Below, piece after piece: positions 16,801-31,269 of a stretch of 64,000 nucleotides of DNA; position 1 is the first letter of the stretch; each line of letters starts with the position of its first letter. The position numbers and the translations under genes are program-made. The DNA comes from Giardia intestinalis (Eukaryota), in NCBI GenBank assembly GCA_000002435.2, contig CM018793.1. One strand, 5' to 3'. The notes beneath the pieces are model-generated. The model was not told the origin of the DNA. It made no database searches and worked only from the letters and a program-made list of their open reading frames with translations.

Positions 16801-19475
16801 GCAAGGCATTCCTGATCTGCATTTTTAGTGGCGGACCTCTGCAGGCGCTCCTTGAGGTGAGTATTTTCAGCGACCAGCCGTTCATTCGTTGCCTTCAATT
16901 GCTCTAGTAGCTTTTTCATATTAGTAGCGTCATCATATAACGGGGGCGAAGTACATTTGTTCGACTCTCGCGTCAACTTTTCTAACCGATCGTTGTCTGC
17001 TTCTAGACCACGAACTCGCTCTGCCAGAAGCAGGACCTCGTTGGTTAGCCGAACATTTTCATCTGCAAGATCTTGAGGAATGCGCTTGCTTGAAGCAACA
17101 GGGGTCGCTGCTCTACTACGATCCTTTTTCTTCAATCTCCCCAGCGAGAGACTTCTCTTCGAGTTTGTCATGGTGTTGCCCATACTACCCATGCTTGCTT
17201 TTAGATCGTCTAACTCTTGGGTCTTAGTCTCCAGTTCGTCAAGCAACAATTGTATCTGTTTTGGTGACGTTTGTGAATGATCAAGATTGCCTGGATCTAA
17301 GTCAGGCATAGAGTTTATCACCTCACGGAGCCGCTCTATTTCTGCGTCTTTATCAGCAAGTAGTGAGATTAACTCACGTGTAGAGGAGATGGTATCCACA
17401 ACGTCTTCCATAGTAGAAGCACACAGGCTTTCTGACAGGCCCTTTACTCCTACCCTAGAATTGGCAAGAATCTTACAAAGCTTTGAGTCGTCATGTTGCG
17501 GCCTTTCGCTAAGCTCCTTCTTAAGCGTCTCGTTCTCCTTCAGTAGATCCTCCACCTCATGTTCTAAGGCCTTTATTTTATCGGTCAGTGAATCTATTGC
17601 AGCAGGAACAGGCATCTGCACCCTGTGTAGTTCTGTTGCATCCAAGAGCTCCTGAAGCTCGTTAATTTTGGCGGCCTGTTCCGCAATTACTTTGTTCATA
17701 AGCTCTTCCTTGTTAGTTTCGAGGGTCTTTGGGGTGATCGTGCCATCCGTTTCAACTCTAGCCAGCTGTTCTCTGAGAAGATGTATCTCTTTGTCACGCT
17801 CAGCAAGTTGGATGATTGTGTTCTTGCGGTATGCATCAAAGCTAGAAGATGACCGAGTGGTAGCATCCTTGCGCACAGATTTACCACGCCCAAAGAGCGA
17901 GGACGTGCTCAGTCTGTTTGAATTGCGACTCTTGACACTGGACTCTGCCTTCATTTCTTGATATCCTACTGTGGCCTGTAGGTCGCTAACTCCTCGAGAC
18001 TGATATTCGGAGATAAGCTCCTGAAGCATGGCGATAGTATTGTTCTTCTCGTCTATTATCTTGTCGAACTCTTCCGTAGTAACTATGGAGCAAGAGATAG
18101 GAGCGTCTTGCAAATCACCCAAATACTTCCTGTTTTGTCTACTAAATACATTTTCCGAGGGATCTGCGGTGCTTCTTTTTGGCCCGCACATCGGAGGTGT
18201 TCTCGGTCTGGACTTGTCCTTTAGCATGGCGGTGACCGACTTGGACCGACGCCGAGGCTTCTTAGCGCTCGAAGGCCGCAAAAACTCTAAATCCTCATAT
18301 ACTAAAATATCCGTGTTCTTCTGATTCTCTTCTTGAATATAGGGCTCATCAGATAGATGCTTCTGTCCGGTTTGTGCCATTTGCAACATGTGTTGGAGAT
18401 TCATGTTTTCCTGAACGGATAGTGCATACGCATCTTCCAGATGTCTGATCCTTTCCGTTAACTCGGCCATTGCTGATTCATTATCTAGACACGATAAAGC
18501 GTAATTGCCAATGGCTGGAGACGTACCAAACCCAATTGGTGATGTGGCCGTGGCAGTAGCAGCGGGCTCTGTTGTGGGCAAACAATAAGGATAGTTTGCC
18601 TGCTGGAGCTTTAGATTCTCCATCTGCAATGTTATTATCTCATTTTCTTTAATCTGCATAGAGTTGGTGAGCTCTGTGATCTTGTGCCTTAGCATGCTCA
18701 CTGTCTGTCCATGCCTGTCGTTGAAGTCGGTGACAGAGGAGGTTACTGACCCGACATACGACGTAGTCATCTGGGAAGCTGTTAGAGGGTTTTGCTGAGG
18801 AGTCCGCATGGGACTCGGAGATGACTCAGCGGCATAAACAGAGGTTTTGGTCTGAGGTTGAGTTGTGGACGGACGGTGTTTAGATGGAACAAATGCGTGT
18901 ACGTTAGATGTGCGGCGTGCATTATTTTTAAAAGAAACCAGGGCACGTTCAATCTCTAAAAATCTATTCTCTGAGGCCACGTTAATAGCATATTTGAGCT
19001 CGATGTTAGATATTCGCTGTGAGGACAGTATAATATTGACGCAGTCTAGATGACCCGAATTAACAGCATAGTCCAGGGCGTTGAGCCGCGCCTTATCCTG
19101 TCGCAACTTAAAGTTCTTCGTCATCATCAGAAGCGCCGCTGCGGCTCCAACTTGTGCTGCTAGCATGTACGAGTCTCTACCATCGTCGAGAGTGATGTCC
19201 TTCTCCAGGGGCGCCAAAACCTCACACAGGCCCGGATTGTTGGAAAGAGCAGCGACCATGAGAGCCGTGTAACCAGATGTACTAACTAGTCCAGCCTCAT
19301 ACGGGATTAGTATGTGGGCCATTTTTAAGTTCCCAGCGCGACACGCCTGAATGAGAGCAGTATCTCCATCAATGTTAACGTATCCTTTAAAGCTTTCAAC
19401 AAGAGAGCGTACGGTTTCTTGGTCTCCTTGCGCAACAGCGTGGAACCACGCTGCCTCGGAAGGTGATTGAAACAT
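13854..19475 (-). CDS. Ankyrin-repeat / long coiled-coil / ankyrin-repeat protein (protein 21.1 type), 1873 aa, tandem paralogue of 10200-13823
   Basis: The N-terminus is alignable by eye to the neighbouring gene: AAWFHAVAQGDQETVRSLVE vs RTWFRAIQSGDISEVERLLPE, DSYMLAAQVGAAAALL vs DAYMIAAQVGSYDALV, LNALDYAVNSGHLDCVNII vs LNALDYASMTGNLRCVVEIV. C-terminal ankyrin block (GTTALMLAAEYNVPAAVKYL, GRTALMYACEAGHVACARLLL, NDALFYV). More than 1200 aa of coiled coil sit between them. The ATG at 19475 was verified. Confidence 0.85.
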   Translation of the reverse strand: MFQSPSEAAWFHAVAQGDQETVRSLVESFKGYVNIDGDTALIQACRAGNLKMAHILIPYEAGLVSTSGYTALMVAALSNNPGLCEVLAPLEKDITLDDGRDSYMLAAQVGAAAALLMMTKNFKLRQDKARLNALDYAVNSGHLDCVNIILSSQRISNIELKYAINVASENRFLEIERALVSFKNNARRTSNVHAFVPSKHRPSTTQPQTKTSVYAAESSPSPMRTPQQNPLTASQMTTSYVGSVTSSVTDFNDRHGQTVSMLRHKITELTNSMQIKENEIITLQMENLKLQQANYPYCLPTTEPAATATATSPIGFGTSPAIGNYALSCLDNESAMAELTERIRHLEDAYALSVQENMNLQHMLQMAQTGQKHLSDEPYIQEENQKNTDILVYEDLEFLRPSSAKKPRRRSKSVTAMLKDKSRPRTPPMCGPKRSTADPSENVFSRQNRKYLGDLQDAPISCSIVTTEEFDKIIDEKNNTIAMLQELISEYQSRGVSDLQATVGYQEMKAESSVKSRNSNRLSTSSLFGRGKSVRKDATTRSSSSFDAYRKNTIIQLAERDKEIHLLREQLARVETDGTITPKTLETNKEELMNKVIAEQAAKINELQELLDATELHRVQMPVPAAIDSLTDKIKALEHEVEDLLKENETLKKELSERPQHDDSKLCKILANSRVGVKGLSESLCASTMEDVVDTISSTRELISLLADKDAEIERLREVINSMPDLDPGNLDHSQTSPKQIQLLLDELETKTQELDDLKASMGSMGNTMTNSKRSLSLGRLKKKDRSRAATPVASSKRIPQDLADENVRLTNEVLLLAERVRGLEADNDRLEKLTRESNKCTSPPLYDDATNMKKLLEQLKATNERLVAENTHLKERLQRSATKNADQECLAFVFNDMKEDSPVLCDVVARIATPPASVVLDAHDSAYADDGQSSTARLNAILGVQIGAGGVSLPQQASLDMLQTKDATITSLQAELLEKNEEIDRLKYIISAYSVNIAQEQPAVLNGSPNLDGESEVIKLTDSRSTRSSKKSVSRATTPSSMVHSTTSLAKSRAAFGRCRSTSLQNSQFHQGNLINTEQAEIDALKLAIQERDEEILRLRSLREEQLSLALPASDATNELTAQKEKVRLLTLAANEQELEIDKLKAEIRRLTADNSALLKEVQTYGDDMDILRETQEKLRTIESTMETRDNSIAEVEGRLRVLTSENDKLRTVGEQREAQLQATQLLLAQASSREYSQILAKKDDEIERLITLLENINTNTVQRESTANTISAIAPVSTHVVDASVSIDLLVEPLQDPPGFLSYEVAAHEVSKRLAEYTVEKISGIYDMLDNVVQEYVAREEALAMQVVSLQKALEAETQDGMVSRLPDPVCYDIYDELERDLRAELAQTKEALAKATDLLEEREEALERTDRPKSSIRYPPPPSSSSKDAHVISRHATPEPSDSADAFESLPTEQLHEPSPLSGKPVVLHYASNILLAKDAEIGRLQNLLMLMADRSLDNDAAKNSLDQRPHPSEDIDSLVIENVALSNEVDILNLSISIQNNVISTIADHYIKKHPTAESGDPTVSLLEGKILSLTEQLAQADGQVTQLMAEVHATGASRASSSQRPASVFLPRSHPLSEYRSASVLRTSSGDEKIPSSNSFDAFPVAASSPLDQLSIGLIKPSVAPIVTAILRSSEQSAHEPLKNPTALMEAIMTGNMRAIGANLQQIGYSLENGTTALMLAAEYNVPAAVKYLAEFEAGKTRSDGKRAIDIALQLDHLKVATLLLNWEGLDISVYSSEGNRRTELMTAAAHGDVYIVFNLLGLQAKLQDSEGRTALMYACEAGHVACARLLLVEKEIRDNQGNDALFYVSKDLPSHYILSSLLSSRSV

Positions 19476-19498: not shown

Positions 19499-20191
19499 AT
19501 GGAGCTTGTGATAGAACCAGTTAAGCAGCATAGGCGCCAAACTCTGTCCACCCAGGTACGTGAGGGCAGGCAACAAGCAGAGGAGAAAGCCCGTTGTGTA
19601 GATAAGCAAACTGTCGACTGGAGCAACAAATCCTTTGCAACAATTCGATTGCCAGAGCAAAAAACCACTAAGTACGAGGATTGCTGGAGTTCGTTTTCTG
19701 ATACGTATACTGACATTGTGACGTCTGAATTCATAGAGCAAATCGAGAAACAAACTAAAGAACAAATCCGGATTAATGAACTCCCAAGGCAAAGCACTAC
19801 ACCTACAGTCGTCAACATAAATCCACCTTCACCAGAGCGGTCAACTGTCAATCAGAGAGCCTTCAAAAAATTAGCACAACCCCGAACGTATCGAAAAGGA
19901 TATCTGCCAACCAGTACAGTATTGTCTCCGACATTTGCATTTTGCAATAGAAGATACCTAGAGCACAGTCTCTCAAAGAACACAGAATCACCAAAATCAG
20001 AGAAGAAACGTGCGGAGATTATGTCCTGCAAACGATTAGCTCATTCAACGGATATAGCCATTCACTGGCATAAATATGGCGAGCATACAGAGTCAGTTCT
20101 TCATATAAACGCTTTTAGCCATTACGCAGAGCCACGTAAGGCGTCTTATGCTACAGGGACCATAGAGAAATCCGAGAAAGCTCTGGAATAG
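19499..20191 (+). CDS. Possible small hydrophilic protein, 230 aa, hypothetical
   Basis: ATG-initiated ORF filling an otherwise 675-bp gap between two minus-strand genes. An AT-rich tract sits immediately upstream. No domain seen. It overlaps the Raptor 3' end by 41 bp on the opposite strand. Could be spurious. Confidence 0.3.
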   Translation: MELVIEPVKQHRRQTLSTQVREGRQQAEEKARCVDKQTVDWSNKSFATIRLPEQKTTKYEDCWSSFSDTYTDIVTSEFIEQIEKQTKEQIRINELPRQSTTPTVVNINPPSPERSTVNQRAFKKLAQPRTYRKGYLPTSTVLSPTFAFCNRRYLEHSLSKNTESPKSEKKRAEIMSCKRLAHSTDIAIHWHKYGEHTESVLHINAFSHYAEPRKASYATGTIEKSEKALE

Positions 20192-23100
20192 CGATCAATG
20201 GGGCTCGCGGGTGGAATGCAATGCACTGAGGTTCTGTCTGTATGGGCGCTTTGTATGACATTTCACCTAGACACACTCCTGAAACATGTCCAAAAGTGAT
20301 GTTATACGTGAGAATATTCGCTGATTCTGTGTTACCAGGGCTCAAGGGCGTATCTTCTACGCACGAAAATAGCCCAGTATTGTGAAAGTTAACTGTCCTG
20401 GAGCTGGGTATAGAGTACTGCTTCAGTACAGTATCGGTGGCAGTGTCCTTGGACAAGAGTCTGCCAGATGCCGTTGACAAGAAAAGGGTATTGTCATACA
20501 ATGCACCACCATTGATGACCTCCGGGACCTTACCGGTCATAACTGAATTATTGCTTCTGGCATCAAATATGGAGTATTCTTTAGATCCATATGTCAGCAC
20601 TCCACAGCTCAATATGCCTGAGCACAAAGGTACTACATTATCGACAAGGTGGGCAGGCCTAAGTGTCAGGTACTTGGACTCGTGCATGAGATCTATGTAG
20701 CTGACCTCTGTCCCGCCCCGAATGGCAGTCACAATGTGTGGTGCTGTGGTGTGCATCTCTAGAAGGTCTGAATGTCCTCTAAGGATGGGGATGTTATTGG
20801 GCAGCACGGGGGTGTATGTCCACTCACCAACTCGCCTGGCAGATCCAGGTTCGTCTGGCTTCTTCTTTTCATGGAATAACGCGTTGCATATCTTGCTACG
20901 GGCGATAATGTATTGCTTCTTATGATGATTAAGAACAATATCAGGAGAGCTCATGTCTGCATTGAACTTATGTCTATAAAACTCGGCTATTGCATATGGA
21001 CACTTTTGCAGCCTTGTAGACGAGTATAGTGGCTCTGAAGAAGGTGTTCCTACGTTGAACGCGGACGTGTGTCTGCAAAGAGACGTGTCATGATAGTTTG
21101 TAAGAATTCTAACGGTACAATCTGCTGCAGCAATAGCCACCACGCTATGAGGAGTATGCTGGTTCAGAAGGACTATGTCTCCAAGCCAAGCAGATCTATT
21201 TTCCATAGAATATGGGCTTCTTTGCTCTCTGATGAGCTCGGTCATCTTAGAGTATGCGCTAGTCTTATTCTCCAGTGGCACAGCCTCTTCGTCATCGTCC
21301 ATGTCTGGGAAAAGCTTTCTTAGTAGCTTCGGATCAAAGTCTCTTGCCGAAGCAGAGCCTTGCTTGTATAAAATCTTCAGCAGTTGTGAAGAGAAGCTTT
21401 TCAGGACACTATAGTCTAACGACCTTGATGTATTGAGAATGCAGCAGTGGGGACACTCAAGAGATGCTGCATCTGCTTCGAGCATATTAGCTAAGATAAT
21501 TGGCTCAAGGGCTGTGCAATTATCCGTCGCCCAGTTCATCATATTATACGCTTGCGGACCTTGTGGGAAAGCAAGCATTGGGGTATGCAGGTGGCCTGAT
21601 ATTATCCCCCCGCCGGGCCAAGACGTAGGCTGGACGTCCAATATTAGATCAAGTGGTAGCTTATTCAAGAGCTCTCCGGTCGTGGTGTTCCAAACGCAAC
21701 AGGTAGATCCGTTATTCGTAAGCAGAATCGTCTCATTTCGATGAAATACAGCACTTTTAATTGCGCCAGTGCAATGAGAAATAGAGTTGACCTTTTTTAA
21801 CAATAGGGCTGACTTTTCTGAGCAGCGTGCCCCTCCACTGGATTTGTATTCTGCGAAATAGAACGCCCCGTTATCACCTACTCGCCTCTTTAGAACGTCA
21901 CGTACTTCACGTGCCTTCTTCACAGGAGCAAATCTAGAGCTAAGGTGATCTCTTTGCTCGGGATACATTGTGTGAAGTTGTCTTAGAAGATCAACTTCAG
22001 TCATAGCAGTGCAGCTGTTATTGCTTTCCGCATCTGGGAAACTCGTTCGCGAGGTTGCCTGAGAGGGAGCATTTATCTGCCTCAAACTAATCATTGGAAT
22101 AGTTTCGCTGCCTATGCTGTGCGCAGAATCAACTTTTGGAAGCATCTCCATTACAAATAACCCCTCCGGGACAGACTCTGTGGCCAACTTTATAATGGTG
22201 TTGTCTGCTCCTTCTCCGGGCTTTAGTTCCTGTGCATTGCTTTGACTGTTGGGCGAGGACTTTGGAAGTATCTGAAAGGAGCCATCACTGTTTATTGTTA
22301 ATGGCTGAATGTTGGAGCTAATTGACTTCTGAGATAGAAGAGCTGATTTCATCCCTATCTGGTTGTCAGATAGCTTTAAGAATCGAACCTTGCTTAGACT
22401 CTCAGATAACCGATCATAGTCAATATCATTGATTGTAGCAGTGATTCTATTATGCATCTCCATTAGAAAGTTGTTCCTAGTCCATATAAGTGAAGAGTTG
22501 TTATCAGTTGTAAAAAGCGATGTCCTATTTTGTTGGGTGTAACGTAGAATAGGAGATTGCTCTATGCTATTAAGAGATATCATAAGGTAGTTTGAGAAAT
22601 CAAAGAACAAGGCGTGTAGAGCGAGAGAACATACGTATGGAACGAGGTAACCAAAATAAATCTCCTCCATAGGAACTATTAGTTCGTCTCCAAAGTATGC
22701 CTGCGATATCTCACAATACGCCAACGATTCAAGATATGGGAATGGTGATGCAGCCGTTTGCAATTTGAACCGAACAAAGTCGTGTGAAGGCAAAGTGGCA
22801 CTGGTAGATGCGGTTTTCAAGGGTGAGCCAGAGGATTTGCTTTTCAATTCCTTGATGTTTCTTTTCGCTGGTGATGTACTAGTTGAGCTCCTATCTGCTC
22901 TGTTGACCTTTTCGTTATCCTGCATAATTCGTACTCCCAGAGGATTAACATCCCTTGTAATAGTAAACCTTGTAATAGTAAATCTAGAGGAGCTGGTAGG
23001 AAACTGGAGGTTGCTCCTGCTCCATATGCGCATAGCGTCCATACAGTATGTGAGGAGAGGACTAGCCATCGCTGCATTGCGACAGAAATGGCAATAGTGG

Positions 23101-26100
23101 TCTATCACATGCATGCGTTCAAATTTGTCCACCTGGTGTTGCAAGTCATTGAAGTCAGCCTTGCCGGTGCTCTTTGCCAATTCCTCAAAAAGTTGTATGG
23201 GACGGACAAAAAGATTGCCTTTTTTATTATCCCAAGAAGAATATTTTTCACTTTTTAAAAGGTCATGGTCTCTCAGCGTTTGGATTTTAGAAAAGGATGC
23301 GATGTCATTTCCCAGATAACTGGTATTTTTTCGGCGTTGTGACATCAGTGAAAACACATTCGACTTATCACTGCTTAAGGTATTGAGATGCTCCTGTTCT
23401 CGTGAAACTGTGGGTCCAAGTCCACTTCCAGTAAATACTACGGGCGTGGACGGAGAAAGACGCCGTATATCGCTACGGTTTGTTTTCACAGCGCATAGGT
23501 ATCCTTCACAAATGCTTGGCATGTAAGAGCTGAATGATACTCCATGAATGCTCGCGTGGAGAACAGAGTATTCTCTTGGTGGTACTCCTGGAGGAAGAAC
23601 CTCTGTTACCAGCATAGTTTCTAGTTGTGGCGTAGATTGCGTTTCGGGCGCTTCTGGCTTCAGAGTAGTCTTTCTCTTGCTGCAGCTTTTAAGATAGGTG
23701 AGAACAAAGTGAAAGTAAGAGCGTAAACGAGCATGGTCGAATTCTGAGAGTTTTCTTACTTCAAGATCAAACAGGGATGGCCACGGGCTCTGAACGGCGT
23801 CTTTCTCTTGAGATATTGCGGCAGGTGAAGAGATATTCTCAGTGCTATTGAAAATGCGTTCCTTTCTGATAATCCTTTCTTCCATATTCATAGAATTAAA
23901 TTGCAGAGGATCCAGCATAACGGATACAGAATGCTGATAGTGTATCGATGTCGAGGAAATCATTTCTGAACGACTACTACTGCTACATTGCCCAATAGAT
24001 AGCCTAGGCGATCCTGCAAGGTCCTTAACCTTATCAAGAGATAGTAGAGATAGAGAAACCTGTGGGTTAAAGTCCAGACACTTTGTACTTGACGGAGAGA
24101 TGACATAATCCCGCAAGAAAAATGGCAGGCTGGCAAGGGCAGATCGCCCACAAGGACAGCATGCATCGTGCATTCTATAATAGCTGGCTCCACGATCATT
24201 GATGGATAGGAGTGAATGTACAGGACACATCTTCATTGACCGGTGAACTTTCTGCGCCGCGACAGAAGCAGCAGCCTCTATGTTAAAACATATAGAGGGA
24301 AAACGAATGCTGTTTCTGGAGAGAGTAAGAATAACAGATGCACAATTGTAAATCGACGCCACTATCTGAGGCATGCAAATGCGGATTGCCAGCTCTAGCC
24401 ACACGGCATCTAGCTGTTGTAGTAATAAGAACTTCTCTTTGAAAAACTCCAATTCGTGCATATTACACTCGGTTACATCTGATGTGTCCTTTGATTCTGG
24501 CTCAGTAGCAACTAATGTATTATTAATGTCACTTATAGAAATGTCAGATTGATCTGAGTTGCTATCAAAATTGAATGCTTTCCGTTGTTTTATAGAAGTC
24601 GTTACAAAGGAATTCTCAGACGTTTCAGCGCTTTCCGTCGTTCCTGCCGGATATGATTTTGCAGATTGAGAGGTTCCAGGGTTCTTGGAAAATTGGCTCA
24701 TAGACAGACCTTGTGCTTCGGTTGTTTTCAAGGTGATTGCAGCAGTATCTATGCAGACTCCATTAATCTTAACGCTAGTTAGAGGTGATGACTCCAAGTG
24801 GTTATAACACGCTGAGGAAGAGCGCAGAGCTGCGGCTAGGATATGTTTGATCTGTTTCTCTGAGAGATTGCGAACAAGACTGAGCTTCTGTATAATTAGC
24901 CTAACTCGCTGCATGCTCCTATCATTAAATACTTCCCTAACAGCGTTTAATATCTCAGCCTCTGTACTAAGCCTATTAGCAGAAAATCTTTTTTCAAGGT
25001 AATCCTTGCAATTGATGTGGAAGAAGTCATTTGTCATCGGCGTTGTTTGCAATAACAAGCACAGAGCGAGAGACGACACTCCATCAAAGAGATGCCGTGC
25101 TCTAATGGAGATAATCGACACAGGATCATACATTGCTTGCTTAAGTGTGCTATATGTAGTGTGAATAATAGGGTTGACTTGATGAGTCTGGAATCCGTTA
25201 AATATCTTCACATATGCGTTAGAATACATATCATATGCCACTATTAAGTCACTTGTTGCTAGAGCAAGGAAACTTTGAAAGTACAGGGGGATAACACGCG
25301 CAATGCAGCATAGGGCTTCATGTCTGACTAAAGGACTTACGTCATATATGCAGAGCTTAGAAATATTGAGTATAATATCTGGGGGATTCAAGTTGATGCT
25401 CTTATCAGACCCTGCCAAAAAGCTTTCGTTCCAAGTTTCTGACTCCGAGTCGCCCGGATAAAATACATCAACAACCCGATGACAGGCAATGATTGAAATC
25501 AAATCCACAACAGGTAGAGACGAGGTGACAACAGAGATAGCGGCTGCACGTATTTCTGCTGTCATGGATGGCTCAAAGAGCTTCATAAGGATGCCATAGA
25601 TATCGCGGATCTTCCCATAGTTACTTCCATAAGCAACTACGGATTCTGGCTGCTTGAAGTTATCATGTGCAGATGATATCAATTCGTCAGCAGTGAGCAA
25701 TGGCTCTACAGCTTCCTCTACTTGATCCGGCACAAATGTCAAAGAGAACAGCTTTGTTGACGAGCTAAGAAGGTTTGATGAGCTAGTCGCAATCACCATG
25801 CTATTTGAAGTAGGGATTGTTTTAGTGTAGGTATGAAGGGAGGGGCTTGATAGTCTGTTTGATCGTAGCTTTCTAGTATCTGTGACTGTTGTCGTCAGGT
25901 TGTGCATAAGTTCTGAGAGCAGAAGAAGACTCCAAAGCTTAATGTGTTCTGATGCCGAATGGACTAGAATAGCAAGTGCCTCGAGCATATTCTTCTGCAT
26001 TAAACTTTCGCGCATTATTGTGCAACACTCAGAAATGATGCGAGGATCGTCCCCTTGAGTATTCTGTGGCATATAAAAGCCAAACCCGTTTGTTAGGGTT

Positions 26101-28112
26101 GCAGAGCTGGCCTTACAAACAGCTGTCACATTGGAGTTGAGTCCGGTGTGTAATGGCACTTTGGAACGCGATTCTGCAGAAGGAGTCTCACGTGTGCTTA
26201 ATGAAGTGGTGACTGCTGATGTGTGACGAAGACGCGCCTCGAGAACAGCTTGGTCAGTTGTGAGACAGGTCAAGATTATCAGGCATAAGATCCTCATGTC
26301 GGTAGATGTTGTACTCTGCAATAAAAGGTTGCAAAGAACGTCCTCGATGTTCCCTTTGTTGGCTGCCACCCCACTTCCACTACGCCTTTTCGCGATGTTA
26401 ATAATAAGTGGTATTGTAGAATAATTCGCTGTTACAATCTTACAAACTATCAGAATGCAACGGAACTGGTCAGATTCGCACTCCTGAAACGTGTGAACGC
26501 CATGCAAAACTATCTGGAGCAATCGTAATTCTAAGGTGGCCCGAAGGCACCATGGACCCATGTCGATAAAGTGCACAATCAGGTCCAAAGCCTTGCTACG
26601 CAGTTGCTGTATCTTAATACTAATTATTACAAATGGCAAAACATCAGGAATTTCAGTTGATGGATGTGCGTCCAGGAGCCAGAGCTCAAAGGTCCGCAGC
26701 TGGTCCTGCAGGAACGACACCATCAAGTTGGATGTTGGGTCCATTGCTCTCTTCTTAATGAATGATTGATTGGCTGTTGACGAAATAGACGAGGTCTTAG
26801 AGTGCCCACGGAGGTTCAGCTTGGTACTTGCCACTGAGCTTTGGTCGAGACTCTCATTGACCCCTAGCTTGGCTGAGATCTGTGCTCTGTACTTTTCTAG
26901 AGACTTTATCGTTAGAACTGATGACGCTTGTGAGTCCTGTCTAGCTAGAGACCTTTTCTTCGCATCCTTGACTGTTTGCTGCTCGAAGTAGAACGTTAAT
27001 ACACCCAAGTTCATTAGCTTTGCATTACTTGTATAGACACTCGATAAGTTAGCGTTAAAAATGGTGTCAAAGACGTCCCAGAATCGATGAGCGGTTGTAT
27101 CAGGTAAGGAAGGGAGAGATTGAGCCGTTATTCGCAGATCCTTCATGATGCGCTGGGCGAGGATAAACCCAGTGTAAAGTGTACTGACACACTTATCCTG
27201 TCTGTATATCATATTAAATGTATCACGGGGAAGTGAGCTCCATGCAATTGCTTCACAGAGGAGCTTCAATATTTTATTTATGTTGTTAAGGAAGTCCCGT
27301 TTACCGGATTCCTGAAGATATGTATAAACAGATTCGCATTGTTCATATGTGCACGGGGACGAAGTAAACATATATATCTTTCGTATGTATGAGAAAATAT
27401 ACATCTTAACGGGGTTCAGTAGGCATTGTGTAAAAACGTCCGCTGGATAGCAGTTTAGTGAACTCAGCCAGAGGGGCAAACGCTCATTACTGCTTGTTGC
27501 CCCAATCACTAAGATGTTGTCATTGTCTAGTATATCTAATTTTCTAATGGTGTTAATTATGGATCCGGCATAATTGCAATCCAAGACCAGAAGTGCATGA
27601 TCTCCGACAATACGAAGCACATCGTCGATTGATACTAACTGAATTTTCTTTTGTCTGATAGTAGCAGTGTCTGGACCGTCATCATATAACAGAATAGAGC
27701 CTACGGTCGATTGCGAGTCTAACCCGTGGCATATGTAATGTAAGATGGTTCTCTGTGACGACGAAACGTGACTGCTAGTACTGAGACGAAGACTACGCAG
27801 CGTCGGTCGAACTATAAACTTAACCACGTTCTGCCTCTGTATGGAGAGAAGGCTTGTGTAAAGGCGGCGAAACGAAACAGACGTCTGCTCGGCTATTTGA
27901 TCCACCGGAAGGTTCAGAATATCAATATCAGCCTCATATATAGTGTTAACAGTGATTGGAATGTCAATACCTAGTTCTATGGCAGTCAGTATTAAAATCG
28001 TACCGACTTGAGGAGATTGAGAGCTGATGGGCAAAGAGAATGCCTGCATATTTCGTAAGGAGAGAGCATTGAAGCTGTGTCGTTGGCTAGCAAAGAGGAG
28101 GCTGGGTAACAT
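20151..28112 (-). CDS. RPTOR: Raptor (regulatory-associated protein of TOR, TORC1 scaffold) orthologue, 2653 aa
   Basis: N-terminal caspase-like Raptor domain: ILHYICHGLD ... ALLVLDCNYAG ... ADVFTQCLLNPVKMY, corresponding to the metazoan HYNGHG ... DCSNAG ... DLFTSCLTTPIK pattern. Downstream, LCEAIAWSSLPRDTFNMIYRQDKCVSTLYTGFILAQRIMKDL, SLPSLPDTTAHRFWDVFD corresponds to the conserved Raptor segment (IAWNVLPRDLFQKLFRQD ... LAERIM ... SPRLPPT..H..W). The C-terminus has WD-like repeats ending CIAFHPRAPLIAIPELSRISLWSL (cf. metazoan CLAFHPHWPHLAVG). The ATG at 28112 was verified. Confidence 0.85.
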   Translation of the reverse strand: MLPSLLFASQRHSFNALSLRNMQAFSLPISSQSPQVGTILILTAIELGIDIPITVNTIYEADIDILNLPVDQIAEQTSVSFRRLYTSLLSIQRQNVVKFIVRPTLRSLRLSTSSHVSSSQRTILHYICHGLDSQSTVGSILLYDDGPDTATIRQKKIQLVSIDDVLRIVGDHALLVLDCNYAGSIINTIRKLDILDNDNILVIGATSSNERLPLWLSSLNCYPADVFTQCLLNPVKMYIFSYIRKIYMFTSSPCTYEQCESVYTYLQESGKRDFLNNINKILKLLCEAIAWSSLPRDTFNMIYRQDKCVSTLYTGFILAQRIMKDLRITAQSLPSLPDTTAHRFWDVFDTIFNANLSSVYTSNAKLMNLGVLTFYFEQQTVKDAKKRSLARQDSQASSVLTIKSLEKYRAQISAKLGVNESLDQSSVASTKLNLRGHSKTSSISSTANQSFIKKRAMDPTSNLMVSFLQDQLRTFELWLLDAHPSTEIPDVLPFVIISIKIQQLRSKALDLIVHFIDMGPWCLRATLELRLLQIVLHGVHTFQECESDQFRCILIVCKIVTANYSTIPLIINIAKRRSGSGVAANKGNIEDVLCNLLLQSTTSTDMRILCLIILTCLTTDQAVLEARLRHTSAVTTSLSTRETPSAESRSKVPLHTGLNSNVTAVCKASSATLTNGFGFYMPQNTQGDDPRIISECCTIMRESLMQKNMLEALAILVHSASEHIKLWSLLLLSELMHNLTTTVTDTRKLRSNRLSSPSLHTYTKTIPTSNSMVIATSSSNLLSSSTKLFSLTFVPDQVEEAVEPLLTADELISSAHDNFKQPESVVAYGSNYGKIRDIYGILMKLFEPSMTAEIRAAAISVVTSSLPVVDLISIIACHRVVDVFYPGDSESETWNESFLAGSDKSINLNPPDIILNISKLCIYDVSPLVRHEALCCIARVIPLYFQSFLALATSDLIVAYDMYSNAYVKIFNGFQTHQVNPIIHTTYSTLKQAMYDPVSIISIRARHLFDGVSSLALCLLLQTTPMTNDFFHINCKDYLEKRFSANRLSTEAEILNAVREVFNDRSMQRVRLIIQKLSLVRNLSEKQIKHILAAALRSSSACYNHLESSPLTSVKINGVCIDTAAITLKTTEAQGLSMSQFSKNPGTSQSAKSYPAGTTESAETSENSFVTTSIKQRKAFNFDSNSDQSDISISDINNTLVATEPESKDTSDVTECNMHELEFFKEKFLLLQQLDAVWLELAIRICMPQIVASIYNCASVILTLSRNSIRFPSICFNIEAAASVAAQKVHRSMKMCPVHSLLSINDRGASYYRMHDACCPCGRSALASLPFFLRDYVISPSSTKCLDFNPQVSLSLLSLDKVKDLAGSPRLSIGQCSSSSRSEMISSTSIHYQHSVSVMLDPLQFNSMNMEERIIRKERIFNSTENISSPAAISQEKDAVQSPWPSLFDLEVRKLSEFDHARLRSYFHFVLTYLKSCSKRKTTLKPEAPETQSTPQLETMLVTEVLPPGVPPREYSVLHASIHGVSFSSYMPSICEGYLCAVKTNRSDIRRLSPSTPVVFTGSGLGPTVSREQEHLNTLSSDKSNVFSLMSQRRKNTSYLGNDIASFSKIQTLRDHDLLKSEKYSSWDNKKGNLFVRPIQLFEELAKSTGKADFNDLQHQVDKFERMHVIDHYCHFCRNAAMASPLLTYCMDAMRIWSRSNLQFPTSSSRFTITRFTITRDVNPLGVRIMQDNEKVNRADRSSTSTSPAKRNIKELKSKSSGSPLKTASTSATLPSHDFVRFKLQTAASPFPYLESLAYCEISQAYFGDELIVPMEEIYFGYLVPYVCSLALHALFFDFSNYLMISLNSIEQSPILRYTQQNRTSLFTTDNNSSLIWTRNNFLMEMHNRITATINDIDYDRLSESLSKVRFLKLSDNQIGMKSALLSQKSISSNIQPLTINSDGSFQILPKSSPNSQSNAQELKPGEGADNTIIKLATESVPEGLFVMEMLPKVDSAHSIGSETIPMISLRQINAPSQATSRTSFPDAESNNSCTAMTEVDLLRQLHTMYPEQRDHLSSRFAPVKKAREVRDVLKRRVGDNGAFYFAEYKSSGGARCSEKSALLLKKVNSISHCTGAIKSAVFHRNETILLTNNGSTCCVWNTTTGELLNKLPLDLILDVQPTSWPGGGIISGHLHTPMLAFPQGPQAYNMMNWATDNCTALEPIILANMLEADAASLECPHCCILNTSRSLDYSVLKSFSSQLLKILYKQGSASARDFDPKLLRKLFPDMDDDEEAVPLENKTSAYSKMTELIREQRSPYSMENRSAWLGDIVLLNQHTPHSVVAIAAADCTVRILTNYHDTSLCRHTSAFNVGTPSSEPLYSSTRLQKCPYAIAEFYRHKFNADMSSPDIVLNHHKKQYIIARSKICNALFHEKKKPDEPGSARRVGEWTYTPVLPNNIPILRGHSDLLEMHTTAPHIVTAIRGGTEVSYIDLMHESKYLTLRPAHLVDNVVPLCSGILSCGVLTYGSKEYSIFDARSNNSVMTGKVPEVINGGALYDNTLFLSTASGRLLSKDTATDTVLKQYSIPSSRTVNFHNTGLFSCVEDTPLSPGNTESANILTYNITFGHVSGVCLGEMSYKAPIQTEPQCIAFHPRAPLIAIPELSRISLWSL

Positions 28113-28428: not shown

Positions 28429-31269
28429 ATGCGTCCAGCCAAAAGGGGTAAGTCTCAACTGTCTAAGCAGACTGTTGCTGAATCATCTCCCCCGCAAATA
28501 GCGAATGTGCCTCTGCCGGAGAACAGCACTCAGGCGATAGGCGACCTCTTAGAACGTGGCGCAGATCTTTGCACTGCGTACTCACAACTTGCCGATCAAC
28601 GCACCTCTTTACTCTCTGAACAGTTAGAGCAATGCAGTAACCACGATCTTAAGCGCTACTATAGTCGGCTCAATGAGGAACTGACTCTAATCACCCAGAT
28701 CAGCTCGAGGTTGCGTGCAGATCTTAAGTTCATTGCAGCGCAGTCACAAGGATTAATTGTCATTAGCTCTAAAACCATGTCTGATGACCCAGGGCTCTCA
28801 TACAGTTCTTCTCCACCCAGTAAGATGGATGCGTCTGATAGATGTCATGGGTCAATGACCGAGTCAACGCTCCAGGCGTCGACGCGAAGGTCCACGCGCC
28901 TCACTCCCAGTGAGGTTGAGGACTCCCTGGTTCAGGAGTTTATTAGAAAAGGTAACGCGCCCAGATCTGAGGCCGTCAAGTATGCTAAAATTGCTATATC
29001 ATTTGACCCCTCTGGGTATGCTGTTGGTGGAGACAAGCGGAGCTATAAAGAAGAGTTCATTGCAGCTAACTCTGAAAAAATTAGGTTACACGCAATGTTG
29101 CGAGATTCGGAAGCAGAGGTACAACGCTTGAGGAGCTTGGTTGAGCAAGCGCCATCTGAATTAGAGACAAAGCAGCTCAGAGCCAAGACTGCTATACAGG
29201 AAGACAAGATTAACTCTCTTAGATCAGTTTTGTCAATCAGGGATGCATCTAGGACTCGTGACAGCGTTGGTGAGAGTGCCCCTGCATCTCGTCTCGACCA
29301 TGATTTGGTGGATGAATTAACTAAGGAGAACATGGCTTTAAGAATAGAATTGGATAATCAGATCTCTATTGCTAATGCTCAGAATAAAACACACAAGCAA
29401 GAAGTTAGAAAGTTGCGTGAAAAGATCAGTGCTATGCAAAGTCAAGCGTCTCAGGAAGAGAATAAGCCTCAGTTCAAGGAAGCCTCGACCACACCTCAAG
29501 CTTCGGGGCTGTTTGAATCTACTCTGGGTTGTGATACCGGGTATCCTTGTTCTGATGATGACTCTGTGGACAAGAGCTATGTCGCTGAGCTTGAGGATGA
29601 CTTGACTCGTGCGCTATCTCGCATACAAGCCTTAACGGAGGAGAGGAACGCCCTTCAGGCAGATCTGAATAACAAGCTTTCTGCCAAGGCTGAGACTAAC
29701 CTTACAGCTAACCAAGTCCAGGAATTGGCTGCAAACAACATGATTCTCTCTAACGCTTTAACTGCACAGCACCAGCAGCTGACGGCTGCTTTCGCTGAGC
29801 TGAATCAAAAGAACGCCGATCAGCTTGTCCTGCAAAATACCATTCAACAGTTGACAGCTCAGCGTGATTACAACTCTCAAGCAATACAGGCGGAGATGAG
29901 TTCAAAACTAGATGCACAGATCAAGCTATACACAGAGCTTAAGGCTAATTATGAAAGTGCATTGGAGCTTATACAACAGCGCGATGACACTATTCTTCAG
30001 ATGTCAAATGATCTTTCCTCAAATGATAGGGTCACCATGCGCTGTGATAGAGACAATGCACGGCTAGAGCTTAAGGAGTGCAACCAGCAGCTTACTGAAA
30101 CAAAGCGACTACTACAGATGGTCACAGAGGCCATGGGGTATGAAGGCGGCTTCCCAACCACAACTGATGTTGAGCTTTGCGTTTCTCAGCACCAAAGGGA
30201 CAAAGAAAAGAAAACAATGCTAGAAACTGAGTATGCCTTGGCAAAACGAAAAATAGATAGTCTGGAAAAGGAATTGGCTGAGCTTAAGTCAAGTAGAGAC
30301 AGTCTGCAAAGCGCTATCCCCCCTAAGGTAACCCCGGCCAGTGCTATTTCCGCAGCTATTGCAGGTAGCAATGAAATCATTACTCCCCAGGATGCACAGC
30401 GATGTAATACACTATCTAATACTCTCACAGTTGCCCAAGGAATTCCTGGAAGTGCGACTGATTTGATTCGTAGCATGCGGGTCACTGGGGCCGACTTAGC
30501 ATCGTTTCGGACTTCTTCCGTCCGTACCACCAACAAAGCTGGGGTCGCATATGCAAGTTGTGAAATTCTCAATAGTTACACGCCGTTAATGAAAGCAATC
30601 ATAGCCGGAAATAACAGTGCGGTTTCACAAACTATTAGCTTCATAGGAAAGGCGGCGCTTGACGGCACAACAGCCCTCATGCTAGCCGCAATATATGACA
30701 ATAAAGAGGCGGTAGAGATATTAGCACCCCACGAAGCGATGATGAAGAGAAACGACGGAGCCACCGCGCTTAAGTTGGCTTTGCAGACACGACACCTAGG
30801 TCCAGCATCGATCCTGCTTAATTATGAGGGACCTACACTTCCTAAACAATTGCCGGGCTATCCACGTGAGGTAACTGCTTTGATGAAGGCTGCAGAGTTA
30901 GGTGATGTGGTGCTGGTATTTAGCTTGCTCGCTTCTCAAGCTGGGGCGAAGGATGCAGATGGAAGGACGGCTCTGATGAGGGCTGCACGAGCTGGGTTTG
31001 CAGACATAGTGTGGTTGCTAGCTCCACAGGAAGCTGGAATGCAGCTCATTAACGACACAGAGCTTGGCCCGGGCTCAACCGCACTGATGCTGGCTGCAAA
31101 TCAAGGACACCTCGAGTGCGTGAAGCTTCTAATTGCTAGCGAGCGAAAGTATAAGAATAATCTGAACTACGATGCTCTTTTCTATGCTCAGAGTTCTGCA
31201 TCTCATGTCTCCCCGGAGGATAGAGCTTCTATCATCGCTTTGTTAGAAGAAGGGTCTGGCACCCACTAA
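28429..31269 (+). CDS. Coiled-coil plus C-terminal ankyrin-repeat protein (protein 21.1 type), 946 aa
   Basis: About 650 aa of heptad-rich sequence is followed by TALM-type ankyrin repeats (GTTALMLAAIYDNKEAVEILAP, GRTALMRAARAGFADIVWLLAP, STALMLAANQGHLECVKLLI). The C-terminal NYDALFYA motif is shared with the 1873-aa gene (NDALFYV). Confidence 0.85.
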   Translation: MRPAKRGKSQLSKQTVAESSPPQIANVPLPENSTQAIGDLLERGADLCTAYSQLADQRTSLLSEQLEQCSNHDLKRYYSRLNEELTLITQISSRLRADLKFIAAQSQGLIVISSKTMSDDPGLSYSSSPPSKMDASDRCHGSMTESTLQASTRRSTRLTPSEVEDSLVQEFIRKGNAPRSEAVKYAKIAISFDPSGYAVGGDKRSYKEEFIAANSEKIRLHAMLRDSEAEVQRLRSLVEQAPSELETKQLRAKTAIQEDKINSLRSVLSIRDASRTRDSVGESAPASRLDHDLVDELTKENMALRIELDNQISIANAQNKTHKQEVRKLREKISAMQSQASQEENKPQFKEASTTPQASGLFESTLGCDTGYPCSDDDSVDKSYVAELEDDLTRALSRIQALTEERNALQADLNNKLSAKAETNLTANQVQELAANNMILSNALTAQHQQLTAAFAELNQKNADQLVLQNTIQQLTAQRDYNSQAIQAEMSSKLDAQIKLYTELKANYESALELIQQRDDTILQMSNDLSSNDRVTMRCDRDNARLELKECNQQLTETKRLLQMVTEAMGYEGGFPTTTDVELCVSQHQRDKEKKTMLETEYALAKRKIDSLEKELAELKSSRDSLQSAIPPKVTPASAISAAIAGSNEIITPQDAQRCNTLSNTLTVAQGIPGSATDLIRSMRVTGADLASFRTSSVRTTNKAGVAYASCEILNSYTPLMKAIIAGNNSAVSQTISFIGKAALDGTTALMLAAIYDNKEAVEILAPHEAMMKRNDGATALKLALQTRHLGPASILLNYEGPTLPKQLPGYPREVTALMKAAELGDVVLVFSLLASQAGAKDADGRTALMRAARAGFADIVWLLAPQEAGMQLINDTELGPGSTALMLAANQGHLECVKLLIASERKYKNNLNYDALFYAQSSASHVSPEDRASIIALLEEGSGTH

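What the first reader, a model, noticed from the sequence alone, without database searches (positions are those of the whole stretch)
20151..28112. Raptor orthologue about twice the metazoan length, with large Ser-rich insertions
The caspase-like Raptor N-terminal domain, the conserved IAW..LPRD..RQD..LAERIM segment and the terminal WD-like C(I/L)AFHP motif are all recognisable. They are separated by long low-complexity stretches, giving 2653 aa against about 1300 in animals and yeast. This is an expanded TORC1 scaffold in an otherwise reduced eukaryote. It may carry lineage-specific docking regions, or it may simply reflect Giardia's tendency to inflate proteins.
Basis: partly seen in the sequence, partly recalled or inferred. 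Interest (0 to 1): 0.5.

Follow-up and report, generated by a model that had tools for sequence, protein, structure and literature searches.

The report
Giardia Raptor with giant linker insertion
This gene is Giardia's already-catalogued copy of Raptor, the scaffold of the TOR growth-control complex; it is twice the usual length, mostly because one inter-domain linker has grown to about 1,100 residues, and that linker carries short cysteine/histidine motifs conserved across diplomonads.

Summary
The ORF is real: window 20151-28112, minus strand, 2653 aa. It is 100% identical to Giardia intestinalis WB GL50803_16734 (UniProt A8B621). InterPro already tags this protein as Raptor, a 2023 paper calls it RAPTOR-like, and it has been detected by mass spectrometry.

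Profile comparisons recover the full Raptor architecture in order:
- caspase-like RNC domain with the His/Cys dyad, plus the HEAT/armadillo solenoid (aa 37-1016, E=2.6e-45);
- C-terminal WD40 region (aa 2310-2643, E=2.6e-10).

About 1,090 of the roughly 1,380 extra residues sit in one place, the solenoid-to-WD40 linker (aa 1017-2106). Two further insertions lie inside the propeller and six short ones in RNC/ARM.

"Long low-complexity Ser-rich stretches" is overstated. Only 8% of the protein is low-complexity, and the insertions are 13.9% Ser against 9.9% in the core.

The linker is under purifying selection. It holds islands conserved in a 3621-aa Giardia-like orthologue and in the 1941-aa Spironucleus orthologue, including CPxH-x19-Cx(1-2)C and CxxCR-x7-LL motifs.

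The identity is already known. The insertion map and the diplomonad-specific motifs appear undescribed, and their function is only inferred.

The parts
20151..28112 (-). Complete CDS of the Giardia Raptor orthologue (2653 aa plus stop), equal to GL50803_16734 / XP_001709361.1 / UniProt A8B621
   Evidence: ORF list and translation. 2653/2653 identity to P0275. The same ORF is intact in four further orthologues from independent assemblies. Peptides were detected by MS.
27003..28004 (-). RNC domain, aa 37-370. It comprises the caspase-like fold (Pfam Raptor_N, aa 42-188) with the His129-Gly and Asp178-Cys179 dyad positions, plus the extra helices carrying IAW..LPRD..RQD..LAQRIM.
   Evidence: Pfam E=2.1e-12. 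Alignment to human RAPTOR 51-393: HYICHG aligns with HYNGHG and LDCNYAG with YDCSNAG. hhalign. Translation checked.
26739..27002 (-). Insertion 1, aa 371-458. It lies between RNC and the first HEAT repeats, is 18% Ser, and varies between assemblages.
   Evidence: hhalign gap map. Composition and conservation.
25065..26738 (-). HEAT/armadillo solenoid, aa 459-1016, aligned to Raptor positions about 395-799. It is interrupted by short insertions at aa 623-686, 688-701, 752-792, 803-843 and 873-891, and includes the HEAT signature DVSPLVRHEAL (aa 923-933).
   Evidence: PDB alignment of aa 466-537/566. hhalign 37-1016 at E=2.6e-45; the distal part (aa 849-1015) is independently significant at E=1.5e-8.
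21795..25064 (-). Giant linker insertion, aa 1017-2106: about 1,090 aa where canonical Raptors have about 140 between the solenoid and the WD40 domain. It is a mosaic of conserved islands and variable Ser/Thr-rich spacers.
   Evidence: hhalign map. No similarity to the canonical linker. pN 0.19 against pS 0.66-0.70. AF2 was uninformative.
24078..24431 (-). Conserved island 1, aa 1228-1345. It contains the CPxH-x19-CxC motif at aa 1296-1321 (window 24150-24227).
   Evidence: 86-92% identical among assemblages. pN 0.05-0.07, as low as RNC. The Giardia-only HMM hits Spironucleus 903-1084. The motif occurs once in each of the 6 diplomonad Raptors, in none of 289 other proteins held, and in at most 1 of 2000 shuffles. 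Translation checked.
22923..23150 (-). Conserved island 3, aa 1655-1730: IDHxCxxCR-x7-LL, then F.xTRDV.
   Evidence: Alignments A6 and A7. HMM hit to Spironucleus 1094-1312, conditional E=1.4e-10. Regex counts. Translation.
22413..22760 (-). Conserved island 4, aa 1785-1900, beginning ASPFPYLExxAYC. Its predicted structure is helical.
   Evidence: Alignments. pN 0.08-0.10. Weak Spironucleus match at 1336-1360.
20154..21794 (-). C-terminal WD40 region, aa 2107-2653. Blade 1 is at about aa 2107-2153 and blades 2-7 at about 2310-2643. The last strand CIAFHP..ISLWSL matches the human RAPTOR C-terminus.
   Evidence: hhalign 2310-2643 to Raptor 1007-1273 at 96.8% probability, E=2.6e-10; 2107-2153 to 940-996 is weak but collinear. 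With Spironucleus added, E=3.9e-11. The AF2 model shows four-strand groups, and Foldseek matches the region to WD40 propellers (top hits G-beta) at E about 5e-7.
21186..21653 (-). Propeller insertion A, aa 2154-2309, between WD blades 1 and 2. It is predicted helical.
   Evidence: hhalign map. AF2 secondary structure at low confidence. pN 0.13-0.16.
20796..21041 (-). Propeller insertion B, aa 2358-2439, after WD blade 2.
   Evidence: 81-residue gap in the hhalign alignment. Predicted helical at low confidence.

Best explanation
Shown: this is the Giardia intestinalis (WB, assemblage A) orthologue of RAPTOR/Kog1, the substrate-recruiting scaffold of TOR complex 1. No second Raptor_N protein turned up. 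It keeps the three canonical domains in canonical order: the caspase-like RNC domain with its helical extension, the HEAT/armadillo solenoid, and a C-terminal WD40 region. The doubled length comes from insertions at nine mapped positions.
- The largest (aa 1017-2106, about 1,090 aa) replaces the roughly 140-aa solenoid-to-WD40 linker.
- Two insertions sit in the propeller (156 and 82 aa).
- Six short ones sit in RNC/ARM.

Also shown: the giant linker is not plain filler. It alternates variable Ser/Thr-rich spacers with islands that are as constrained as the RNC domain. The islands carry Cys/His motifs (CPxH-x19-Cx(1-2)C and CxxCR-x7-LL...TRDV) that are conserved, in the same order, in a 3621-aa Giardia-like orthologue and in the 1941-aa Spironucleus orthologue.

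Inferred: the RNC/ARM core binds TOR and presents substrates as in other eukaryotes. The expanded linker occupies the position where human Raptor carries the Rag-binding 'claw'. In diplomonads it likely serves as a lineage-specific docking or regulatory region, possibly with small zinc-binding elements. Diplomonads lack recognisable Rag/GATOR1 and Rheb/TSC.
For: Identity and orthology:
- Pfam Raptor_N is the only significant family.
- All significant PDB hits are Raptor/Kog1.
- The protein is 100% identical to GL50803_16734/A8B621, which carries InterPro IPR004083 and GO TORC1 terms, was detected by MS, and is called RAPTOR-like in PMC10418948.

Architecture:
- hhalign against 40 diverse Raptors aligns aa 37-1016 at E=2.6e-45 and aa 2310-2643 at E=2.6e-10, with blade 1 collinear.
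- The best-modelled part of the C-terminus has a WD40-like fold.

Real gene model:
- The same ORF occurs in five orthologue clusters, with conserved flanking ankyrin genes.

Constraint on the insertions:
- pN is 0.175 in the insertions against pS of about 0.67. Island 1228-1345 has pN 0.05-0.07.

Diplomonad-wide islands:
- A Giardia-only HMM hits the Spironucleus linker at conditional E=2.9e-8 and 1.4e-10.
- The motifs occur in 6 of 6 diplomonad Raptors and in none of 289 other proteins held.
- The insert HMM finds nothing in the other Raptors.

Context from the literature:
- The human Raptor claw (aa 916-937) in this linker docks RagA/C (PMC7464330).
- Giardia lacks clear Rag/GATOR1 and Rheb/TSC (PMC5745459).
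- Giardia TOR is also enlarged, at 363 kDa.
Against: - No direct evidence of TOR binding or of any function for the linker.
- AF2 gave no confident model of the linker (mean pLDDT 28) and only a partial one for the WD40 region (mean 39.6). Seven blades and any folded linker domain are therefore unproven.
- Synonymous sites are saturated (pS 0.63-0.75), so the dN/dS values are rough.
- The Spironucleus matches have a notable composition bias (6.7 of 16.7 bits for the first).
- The islands match no known zinc-finger family. The best hits are bL36m at E=0.07 and SLX1_C at E=0.02.
- Linker length varies widely among diplomonads (roughly 600, 1,090 and 1,700 aa), so much of it is dispensable spacer.
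Confidence: 0.85

Rival explanations
1. Neutral bloat. The extra roughly 1,380 residues are tolerated, functionless spacer that accumulated by slippage or drift in loops and linkers of an otherwise ordinary Raptor.
For: - Linker length differs greatly among diplomonads: 1101 aa against 1698 aa for the same aligned region in P0005, and much shorter in Spironucleus.
- The spacers at aa 1100-1227 and 1346-1450 are the least conserved (40-60% identity, pN 0.24-0.28).
- A WB-specific RFTIT duplication shows ongoing slippage.
- AF2 gives no confident fold.
- No known domain matches.
Against: - pN is 3-10 times lower than the saturated pS everywhere in the insertions.
- Islands 1228-1345 and 1785-1900 are as constrained as RNC/ARM.
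- Exact-spacing Cys/His motifs persist across Giardia, P0005 and Spironucleus.
- Only 8% of the protein is low-complexity.
Confidence: 0.12
2. A TOR-independent, neofunctionalised Raptor-like protein. It keeps the fold but has been recruited, through its new linker module, to a different complex.
For: - No TOR interaction data exist.
- The protein is highly divergent: about 24% identity over the aligned columns.
- The lineage lacks the canonical upstream regulators.
Against: - The best-conserved segment is exactly the RNC helical extension plus the first HEAT repeats, which form the TOR-binding wedge in known structures (PMC5745459).
- Giardia has TOR and LST8.
- Only one G. intestinalis cluster appears among the 1092 Raptor_N hits. 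The one extra fragment, P0127, is a frameshifted copy of the same gene.
Confidence: 0.04
3. Gene-model artefact: two genes fused, or an unrecognised intron or assembly error inflating the ORF.
For: The gene is annotated only as 'hypothetical protein'. Many automatic gene calls start at Met22, giving 2632 aa.
Against: - Raptor domains lie at both ends of the ORF, with the insertion between them.
- The same uninterrupted ORF occurs in five divergent orthologues from independent assemblies.
- The first 21 residues are conserved, including in P0005.
- MS supports a protein annotated at 295.6 kDa.
Confidence: 0.02

Closest known systems
Human RAPTOR / yeast Kog1 / Arabidopsis RAPTOR1 (PDB 5H64, 6BCU, 7PQH, 5WBI)
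   Same: Same domain order: RNC caspase-like domain with His/Cys dyad positions, HEAT/armadillo solenoid, C-terminal WD40. The signature IAW..LPRD..RQD..LA(E/Q)RIM and the C-terminal (C/L)AFHP strand are present. These are the best hits in every search.
   Different: - 2653 aa against about 1300-1600.
- A linker of about 1,090 aa replaces the roughly 140-aa solenoid-WD40 linker. It shows no similarity to the canonical linker or Rag 'claw' region.
- Two large insertions lie inside the propeller.
- Only about 24% identity in the aligned columns.
Spironucleus salmonicida Raptor_N protein SS50377_26673 (P0170, 1941 aa)
   Same: A diplomonad orthologue, also over-long. It shares the linker islands and both Cys motifs in the same order.
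   Different: About 700 aa shorter. The spacers are much shorter and Q/N-rich rather than S/T-rich. The second knuckle is CxxC rather than CxC.
Unnamed GC-rich Giardia-like orthologue P0005 (3621 aa, Logan SRR31929897, L001)
   Same: Collinear over the whole length (28% identity), with all islands and motifs present.
   Different: About 1,000 aa longer, mostly through G/A/P/R-rich expansion of the same spacers. The CDS is 64% GC with GC3 of 84%. Its neighbouring genes differ.
Small zinc-knuckle or zinc-ribbon modules (for example ribosomal protein bL36, RING-like SLX1_C)
   Same: Paired CPxH / CxC and CxxC knuckle-like motifs with conserved spacing. The weak best hits are to zinc-binding proteins.
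   Different: No significant match to any Pfam or PDB zinc-finger family. Metal binding is untested. This is a resemblance only.

Membership tests
RAPTOR/Kog1 (TORC1 scaffold) | N-terminal RNC caspase-like domain (Pfam PF14538) | tested here: met
   Raptor_N scores E=2.1e-12 and 47.5 bits against a cutoff of 27, and matches all 6 orthologues. No other caspase family matches.
RAPTOR/Kog1 (TORC1 scaffold) | Conserved His and Cys at the caspase dyad positions (HG and DC motifs) | tested here: met
   H129-G130 and D178-C179 align with human HYNGHG and YDCSNAG. They are invariant in alignments A1 and A2.
RAPTOR/Kog1 (TORC1 scaffold) | RNC helical extension plus first HEAT repeats (the TOR-binding wedge) | tested here: met
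   Sequence homology is met: aa 280-360 and 466-566 are the strongest matches to human, plant and yeast Raptor. Binding to TOR itself was not tested.
RAPTOR/Kog1 (TORC1 scaffold) | Central HEAT/armadillo alpha-solenoid | tested here: met
   hhalign extends to aa 1016, aligned with Raptor position 799. The distal part alone scores E=1.5e-8.
RAPTOR/Kog1 (TORC1 scaffold) | C-terminal WD40 domain homologous to the Raptor propeller | tested here: met
   aa 2310-2643 align to Raptor 1007-1273 at 96.8% probability, E=2.6e-10; E=3.9e-11 with Spironucleus added.
RAPTOR/Kog1 (TORC1 scaffold) | The propeller is closed and seven-bladed | tested here: inconclusive
   The AF2 model has mean pLDDT 39.6; only about aa 2459-2579 are confident. 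That part matches WD40 propellers in Foldseek. The blade 1 assignment is weak (22.9% probability).
RAPTOR/Kog1 (TORC1 scaffold) | Physical association with TOR and LST8 | not testable with these tools
   The literature provides only predicted interactions (PMC10418948).
RAPTOR/Kog1 (TORC1 scaffold) | TOS-motif binding groove between RNC and the solenoid | not tested
   The primary structural paper with residue numbers was not held, so the contact residues could not be mapped.
RAPTOR/Kog1 (TORC1 scaffold) | Single orthologue rather than a divergent paralogue | tested here: met
   One G. intestinalis cluster appears among 1092 Raptor_N hits. P0127 is a frameshifted fragment of the same gene. The whole genome was not available to scan.
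Opisthokont-type Raptor regulatory linker (Rag 'claw') | Sequence similarity of the solenoid-WD40 linker to the canonical linker | tested here: not met
   hhalign of aa 1017-2106 against Raptor positions 760-1000 gives a best probability of 0.5%. This is not a family-defining feature of Raptor as a whole.
Zinc-finger / zinc-ribbon modules (for the linker islands) | Four Cys/His ligands in two knuckles with conserved spacing | tested here: met
   CP.H.{19}C.{1,2}C occurs once in each of the 6 diplomonad Raptors, in none of 289 other proteins held, and in at most 1 of 2000 shuffles. This establishes the pattern only.
Zinc-finger / zinc-ribbon modules (for the linker islands) | Significant match to a described zinc-finger family or structure | tested here: not met
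   Pfam returns nothing significant, the best being SLX1_C at E=0.02. The PDB profile search gives bL36m at E=0.07.
Zinc-finger / zinc-ribbon modules (for the linker islands) | Metal binding | not testable with these tools
   Needs recombinant protein and metal analysis.

The most novel reading that the evidence does not exclude
Diplomonad Raptors have replaced the short solenoid-to-WD40 linker with a large lineage-specific module. In animals that linker carries the Rag-GTPase-binding claw. The conserved Cys/His islands of the new module fold, possibly around zinc, into a docking platform. This platform would supply the nutrient or stage-specific input to TORC1 in organisms that lack Rag/GATOR1 and Rheb/TSC.
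Probability: 0.3. Interest if true: 0.55.

Novelty: new variant of a known kind. Interest (0 to 1): 0.3.

Why it matters
That Giardia has a Raptor is not news. What may matter is how TORC1 is regulated in a parasite lacking the Rag/GATOR and Rheb/TSC branches, which is an open question. This analysis locates nearly all of the lineage-specific sequence at the one position in Raptor that elsewhere receives Rag input. It also pins down short, strongly constrained Cys/His motifs there that can be mutated directly. Sequences absent from the host protein could also be of interest for parasite-selective interference with TORC1. If the linker proves to be a mere spacer, this is an ordinary divergent orthologue.

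Tried and rejected
- A narrow fungal Raptor profile (A3) detected only aa 43-620. hhalign with mact 0.05 gave meaningless greedy alignments. Targeted runs against A3 gave only weak collinear hits. A diverse 40-sequence profile (A4) was needed.
- AF2 of the C-terminal 574 aa with a 5-sequence alignment gave mean pLDDT 39.6, only partly usable. AF2 of the 1101-aa linker gave mean pLDDT 28, unusable and not evidence of disorder.
- A word-indexed protein search with the linker alignment A7 returned nothing, not even Giardia itself, because the candidate list was swamped. It is uninformative.
- A metagenome contig scan with A7 gave 73 pattern matches, none confirmed by tblastn.
- PDB and Pfam searches of the linker islands found nothing significant. 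The whole-protein Pfam hits TOD1_MUCI70 (E=0.013), WWC1 and Cucumo_coat were judged spurious.
- A literature search by locus tag found nothing in main texts. The primary TOS-structure paper was not held, so TOS-contact residues were not mapped.
- Considered and rejected: gene fusion or an assembly artefact; a different caspase-like family; P0127 as a paralogue (it is a frameshifted fragment).

Full report
**Observation.** The window holds one uninterrupted ORF at 20151..28112 on the minus strand, encoding 2653 aa. An open frame of nearly 8 kb cannot arise by chance.

**Identity.**
- Pfam finds Raptor_N at aa 42-188 (E=2.1e-12, 47.5 bits against a cutoff of 27) and no other caspase-like family.
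- All eight PDB sequences matched are Raptor/Kog1. Human RAPTOR scores E=2.4e-29, with aa 29-359 aligned to 51-393 and aa 466-537 to 407-478. The HG and DC dyad positions are preserved. A six-sequence Giardia profile raises this to about 1e-41.
- The protein is 2653/2653 identical to GL50803_0016734 / XP_001709361.1 / UniProt A8B621 of Giardia intestinalis WB, which is annotated 'hypothetical protein'.
- That entry is called RAPTOR-like in PMC10418948.
[quoted passage not shown] It was detected by mass spectrometry as a 2653-aa, 295.6-kDa protein.
- The identity is therefore already public knowledge.

**Architecture.** A narrow fungal Raptor profile recognised only aa 43-620. I then ran an exhaustive profile search with the N-terminal 580 aa. 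It returned 1092 Raptor_N proteins, and I aligned 40 diverse full-length ones (A4). Profile-profile comparison against this alignment gave the following.

| Giardia aa | Raptor positions | Probability / E-value | Assignment |
|---|---|---|---|
| 37-1016 | 55-799 | 100%, E=2.6e-45 | RNC + HEAT/ARM |
| 849-1015 (run alone) | 606-798 | E=1.5e-8 | distal HEAT/ARM |
| 2107-2153 | 940-996 | 22.9%, collinear | WD blade 1 |
| 2310-2643 | 1007-1273 | 96.8%, E=2.6e-10 | WD blades 2-7 |

Adding the Spironucleus orthologue improved the first and last hits to 1.6e-52 and 3.9e-11. AF2 on the last 574 aa gave a low mean confidence (pLDDT 39.6). It did show four-strand groups at the expected blade positions and a confident stretch at about aa 2459-2579, and Foldseek matches the region to WD40 propellers such as G-beta at E about 5e-7. 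All three canonical Raptor domains are thus present in order. The number of blades is not proven.

**Where the extra length sits.** The gap map places insertions at:
- aa 371-458;
- aa 623-686, 688-701, 752-792, 803-843 and 873-891;
- aa 1017-2106, which is about 1,090 aa where Raptors have about 140;
- aa 2154-2309, where Raptors have 11;
- aa 2358-2439.

One site, the solenoid-to-WD40 linker, accounts for roughly 950 of the roughly 1,380 extra residues. Among the 148 other best representatives, the median length is 1272 aa, the 95th percentile 1748 and the maximum 2332. Giardia, at 2643-2653 aa, lies beyond all of them, as does a Giardia-like relative at 3621 aa.

**Is it Ser-rich low complexity?** Only mildly.
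- Ser is 12.3% overall, 13.9% in the insertions and 9.9% in the core. Neighbouring ORFs in the non-repeat part of the window range from 6.6% to 13.9%.
- A SEG-like scan flags 8.2% of residues, with no run longer than 23 aa.
- Really Ser-dense patches are short: aa 421-450, 752-792, 1368-1397 and 1742-1771.

**Is the insertion constrained?** I threaded codons from assemblage B (L002) and another assemblage (L003) onto the protein alignment.
- Synonymous sites are saturated (pS 0.63-0.75), so dN/dS is only rough.
- pN is 0.083 in the core and 0.175 in the insertions.
- pN is 0.05-0.07 in island aa 1228-1345, equal to the RNC domain.
- pN is 0.08-0.10 in island aa 1785-1900.
- pN is 0.24-0.28 in the most variable spacers.

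Everything is well below pS. The flanking ankyrin-repeat genes are syntenic in the other assemblages.

**Lineage distribution.**
- The 3621-aa orthologue P0005 is collinear throughout and shares the islands. It comes from Logan run SRR31929897, and its CDS is 64% GC with GC3 of 84%.
- The 1941-aa Spironucleus salmonicida protein SS50377_26673 was identified among the long representatives.
- An HMM built only from the Giardia group matches the Spironucleus linker. HMM positions 1184-1368 align with Sp 903-1084 (conditional E=2.9e-8). Positions 1483-1724 align with Sp 1094-1312 (1.4e-10). Positions 1776-1800 align with Sp 1336-1360.
- Two motifs stand out. CP.H.{19}C.{1,2}C starts at C1296 and keeps identical spacing in all six diplomonad sequences. 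C..CR.{7}LL starts at C1674 and is followed by TRDV.
- Each motif occurs once per diplomonad Raptor, in the same order. Neither occurs in the 289 other proteins held (nearly all non-diplomonad Raptors, 397,497 residues). The first motif appears in at most 1 of 2000 shuffles.
- An HMM of aa 1200-1900 finds nothing in the other Raptors at E<=1.
- The linker has no detectable similarity to the canonical Raptor linker.
- The islands match no Pfam family or PDB sequence significantly.
- AF2 on the linker was unusable (pLDDT 28). A word-indexed search and a metagenome scan with the linker alignment returned nothing.

**Interpretation.**
- Shown: this is the Giardia Raptor orthologue with full canonical architecture. 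Its excess length is concentrated in one linker and in two propeller loops. The linker is a mosaic of constrained, diplomonad-specific Cys/His-bearing islands and variable spacers.
- Inferred from family knowledge: the RNC/HEAT wedge binds TOR and the RNC-solenoid groove presents substrates (PMC5745459, PMC6325617).
- In human Raptor, the same linker carries the claw (aa 916-937) that inserts between RagA and RagC (PMC7464330). Giardia lacks clear Rag/GATOR1 and Rheb/TSC, and its TOR is also enlarged at 363 kDa.
- The most likely role of the expanded linker is therefore lineage-specific docking or regulation, possibly with small zinc-binding elements. This is a hypothesis, not a result.
- Rivals: pure neutral bloat is plausible for the spacers but not for the islands. 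A TOR-independent paralogue and a gene-model artefact are both poorly supported.

**Verdict.** The identity is already known. The insertion map and the diplomonad-specific motifs appear to be undescribed in the literature I could search, and they are of modest interest.

Noticed in passing
window 43194-63830 (-): A 6878-aa ORF fills a 63% GC block with AT skew of about -0.35, inside a genome region of about 46% GC. It encodes an Ala/Glu/Arg/Leu-rich coiled-coil protein built from near-identical tandem units of 1509 and 1698 nt, at least 12 copies. TRF misses the array because the period exceeds 500. Pfam returns only generic coiled-coil matches (ATG16, Tropomyosin and similar).
   Followed up: partly
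window 33997-43146 (-): A 3049-aa ORF (12% Ser) with no Pfam family at E<=0.001. It is another very long orphan gene next to the repeat protein.
   Followed up: no
window 19499-20191 (+): A 230-aa ORF with no Pfam hit converges on the Raptor gene and overlaps its 3' end by 41 nt (20151-20191). At the same position in two other assemblages (L002, L003), shorter genes of 217 and 159 aa are called that do not overlap.
   Followed up: partly
window 22956-22985 (-), aa 1710-1719: A direct RFTIT-RFTIT duplication sits immediately before the conserved TRDVNPLG motif. It is present in this sequence but absent from the other assemblages (IFHLTRDV), so it looks like a recent slippage event inside the linker.
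   Followed up: partly
window 28050-28112 (-), aa 1-21: Many automatic gene calls for this gene start at Met22, giving 2632 aa. The first 21 residues (LLFASQRHSFNALS) are conserved in all assemblages and in the distant P0005, which supports the longer 2653-aa model.
   Followed up: yes
L001 5001-15866: A 3621-aa collinear Raptor orthologue from an unnamed GC-rich Giardia-like organism (CDS 64% GC, GC3 84%; Logan SRR31929897). Its neighbours differ (RabGAP-TBC, PX, SGTA-like TPR). The same spacers are expanded further with Gly/Ala/Pro/Arg-rich sequence.
   Followed up: partly
window 13854-19475 (-) and 28429-31269 (+): Both flanking genes are ankyrin-repeat proteins (Ank_2 at E=1e-41 and 6e-29). 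This arrangement is conserved around the Raptor gene in two other assemblages (L002, L003). The ORF at 31305-33110 (+) has a weak protein-kinase match.
   Followed up: partly
literature: PMC5913674, supplement files 7 and 8: In quantitative proteomics of metronidazole-resistant Giardia lines, GL50803_16734 is listed with ratios of about 0.62 and 0.73 (values 0.011 and 0.032 in the adjacent column). This suggests lower Raptor abundance in two resistant lines.
   Followed up: no
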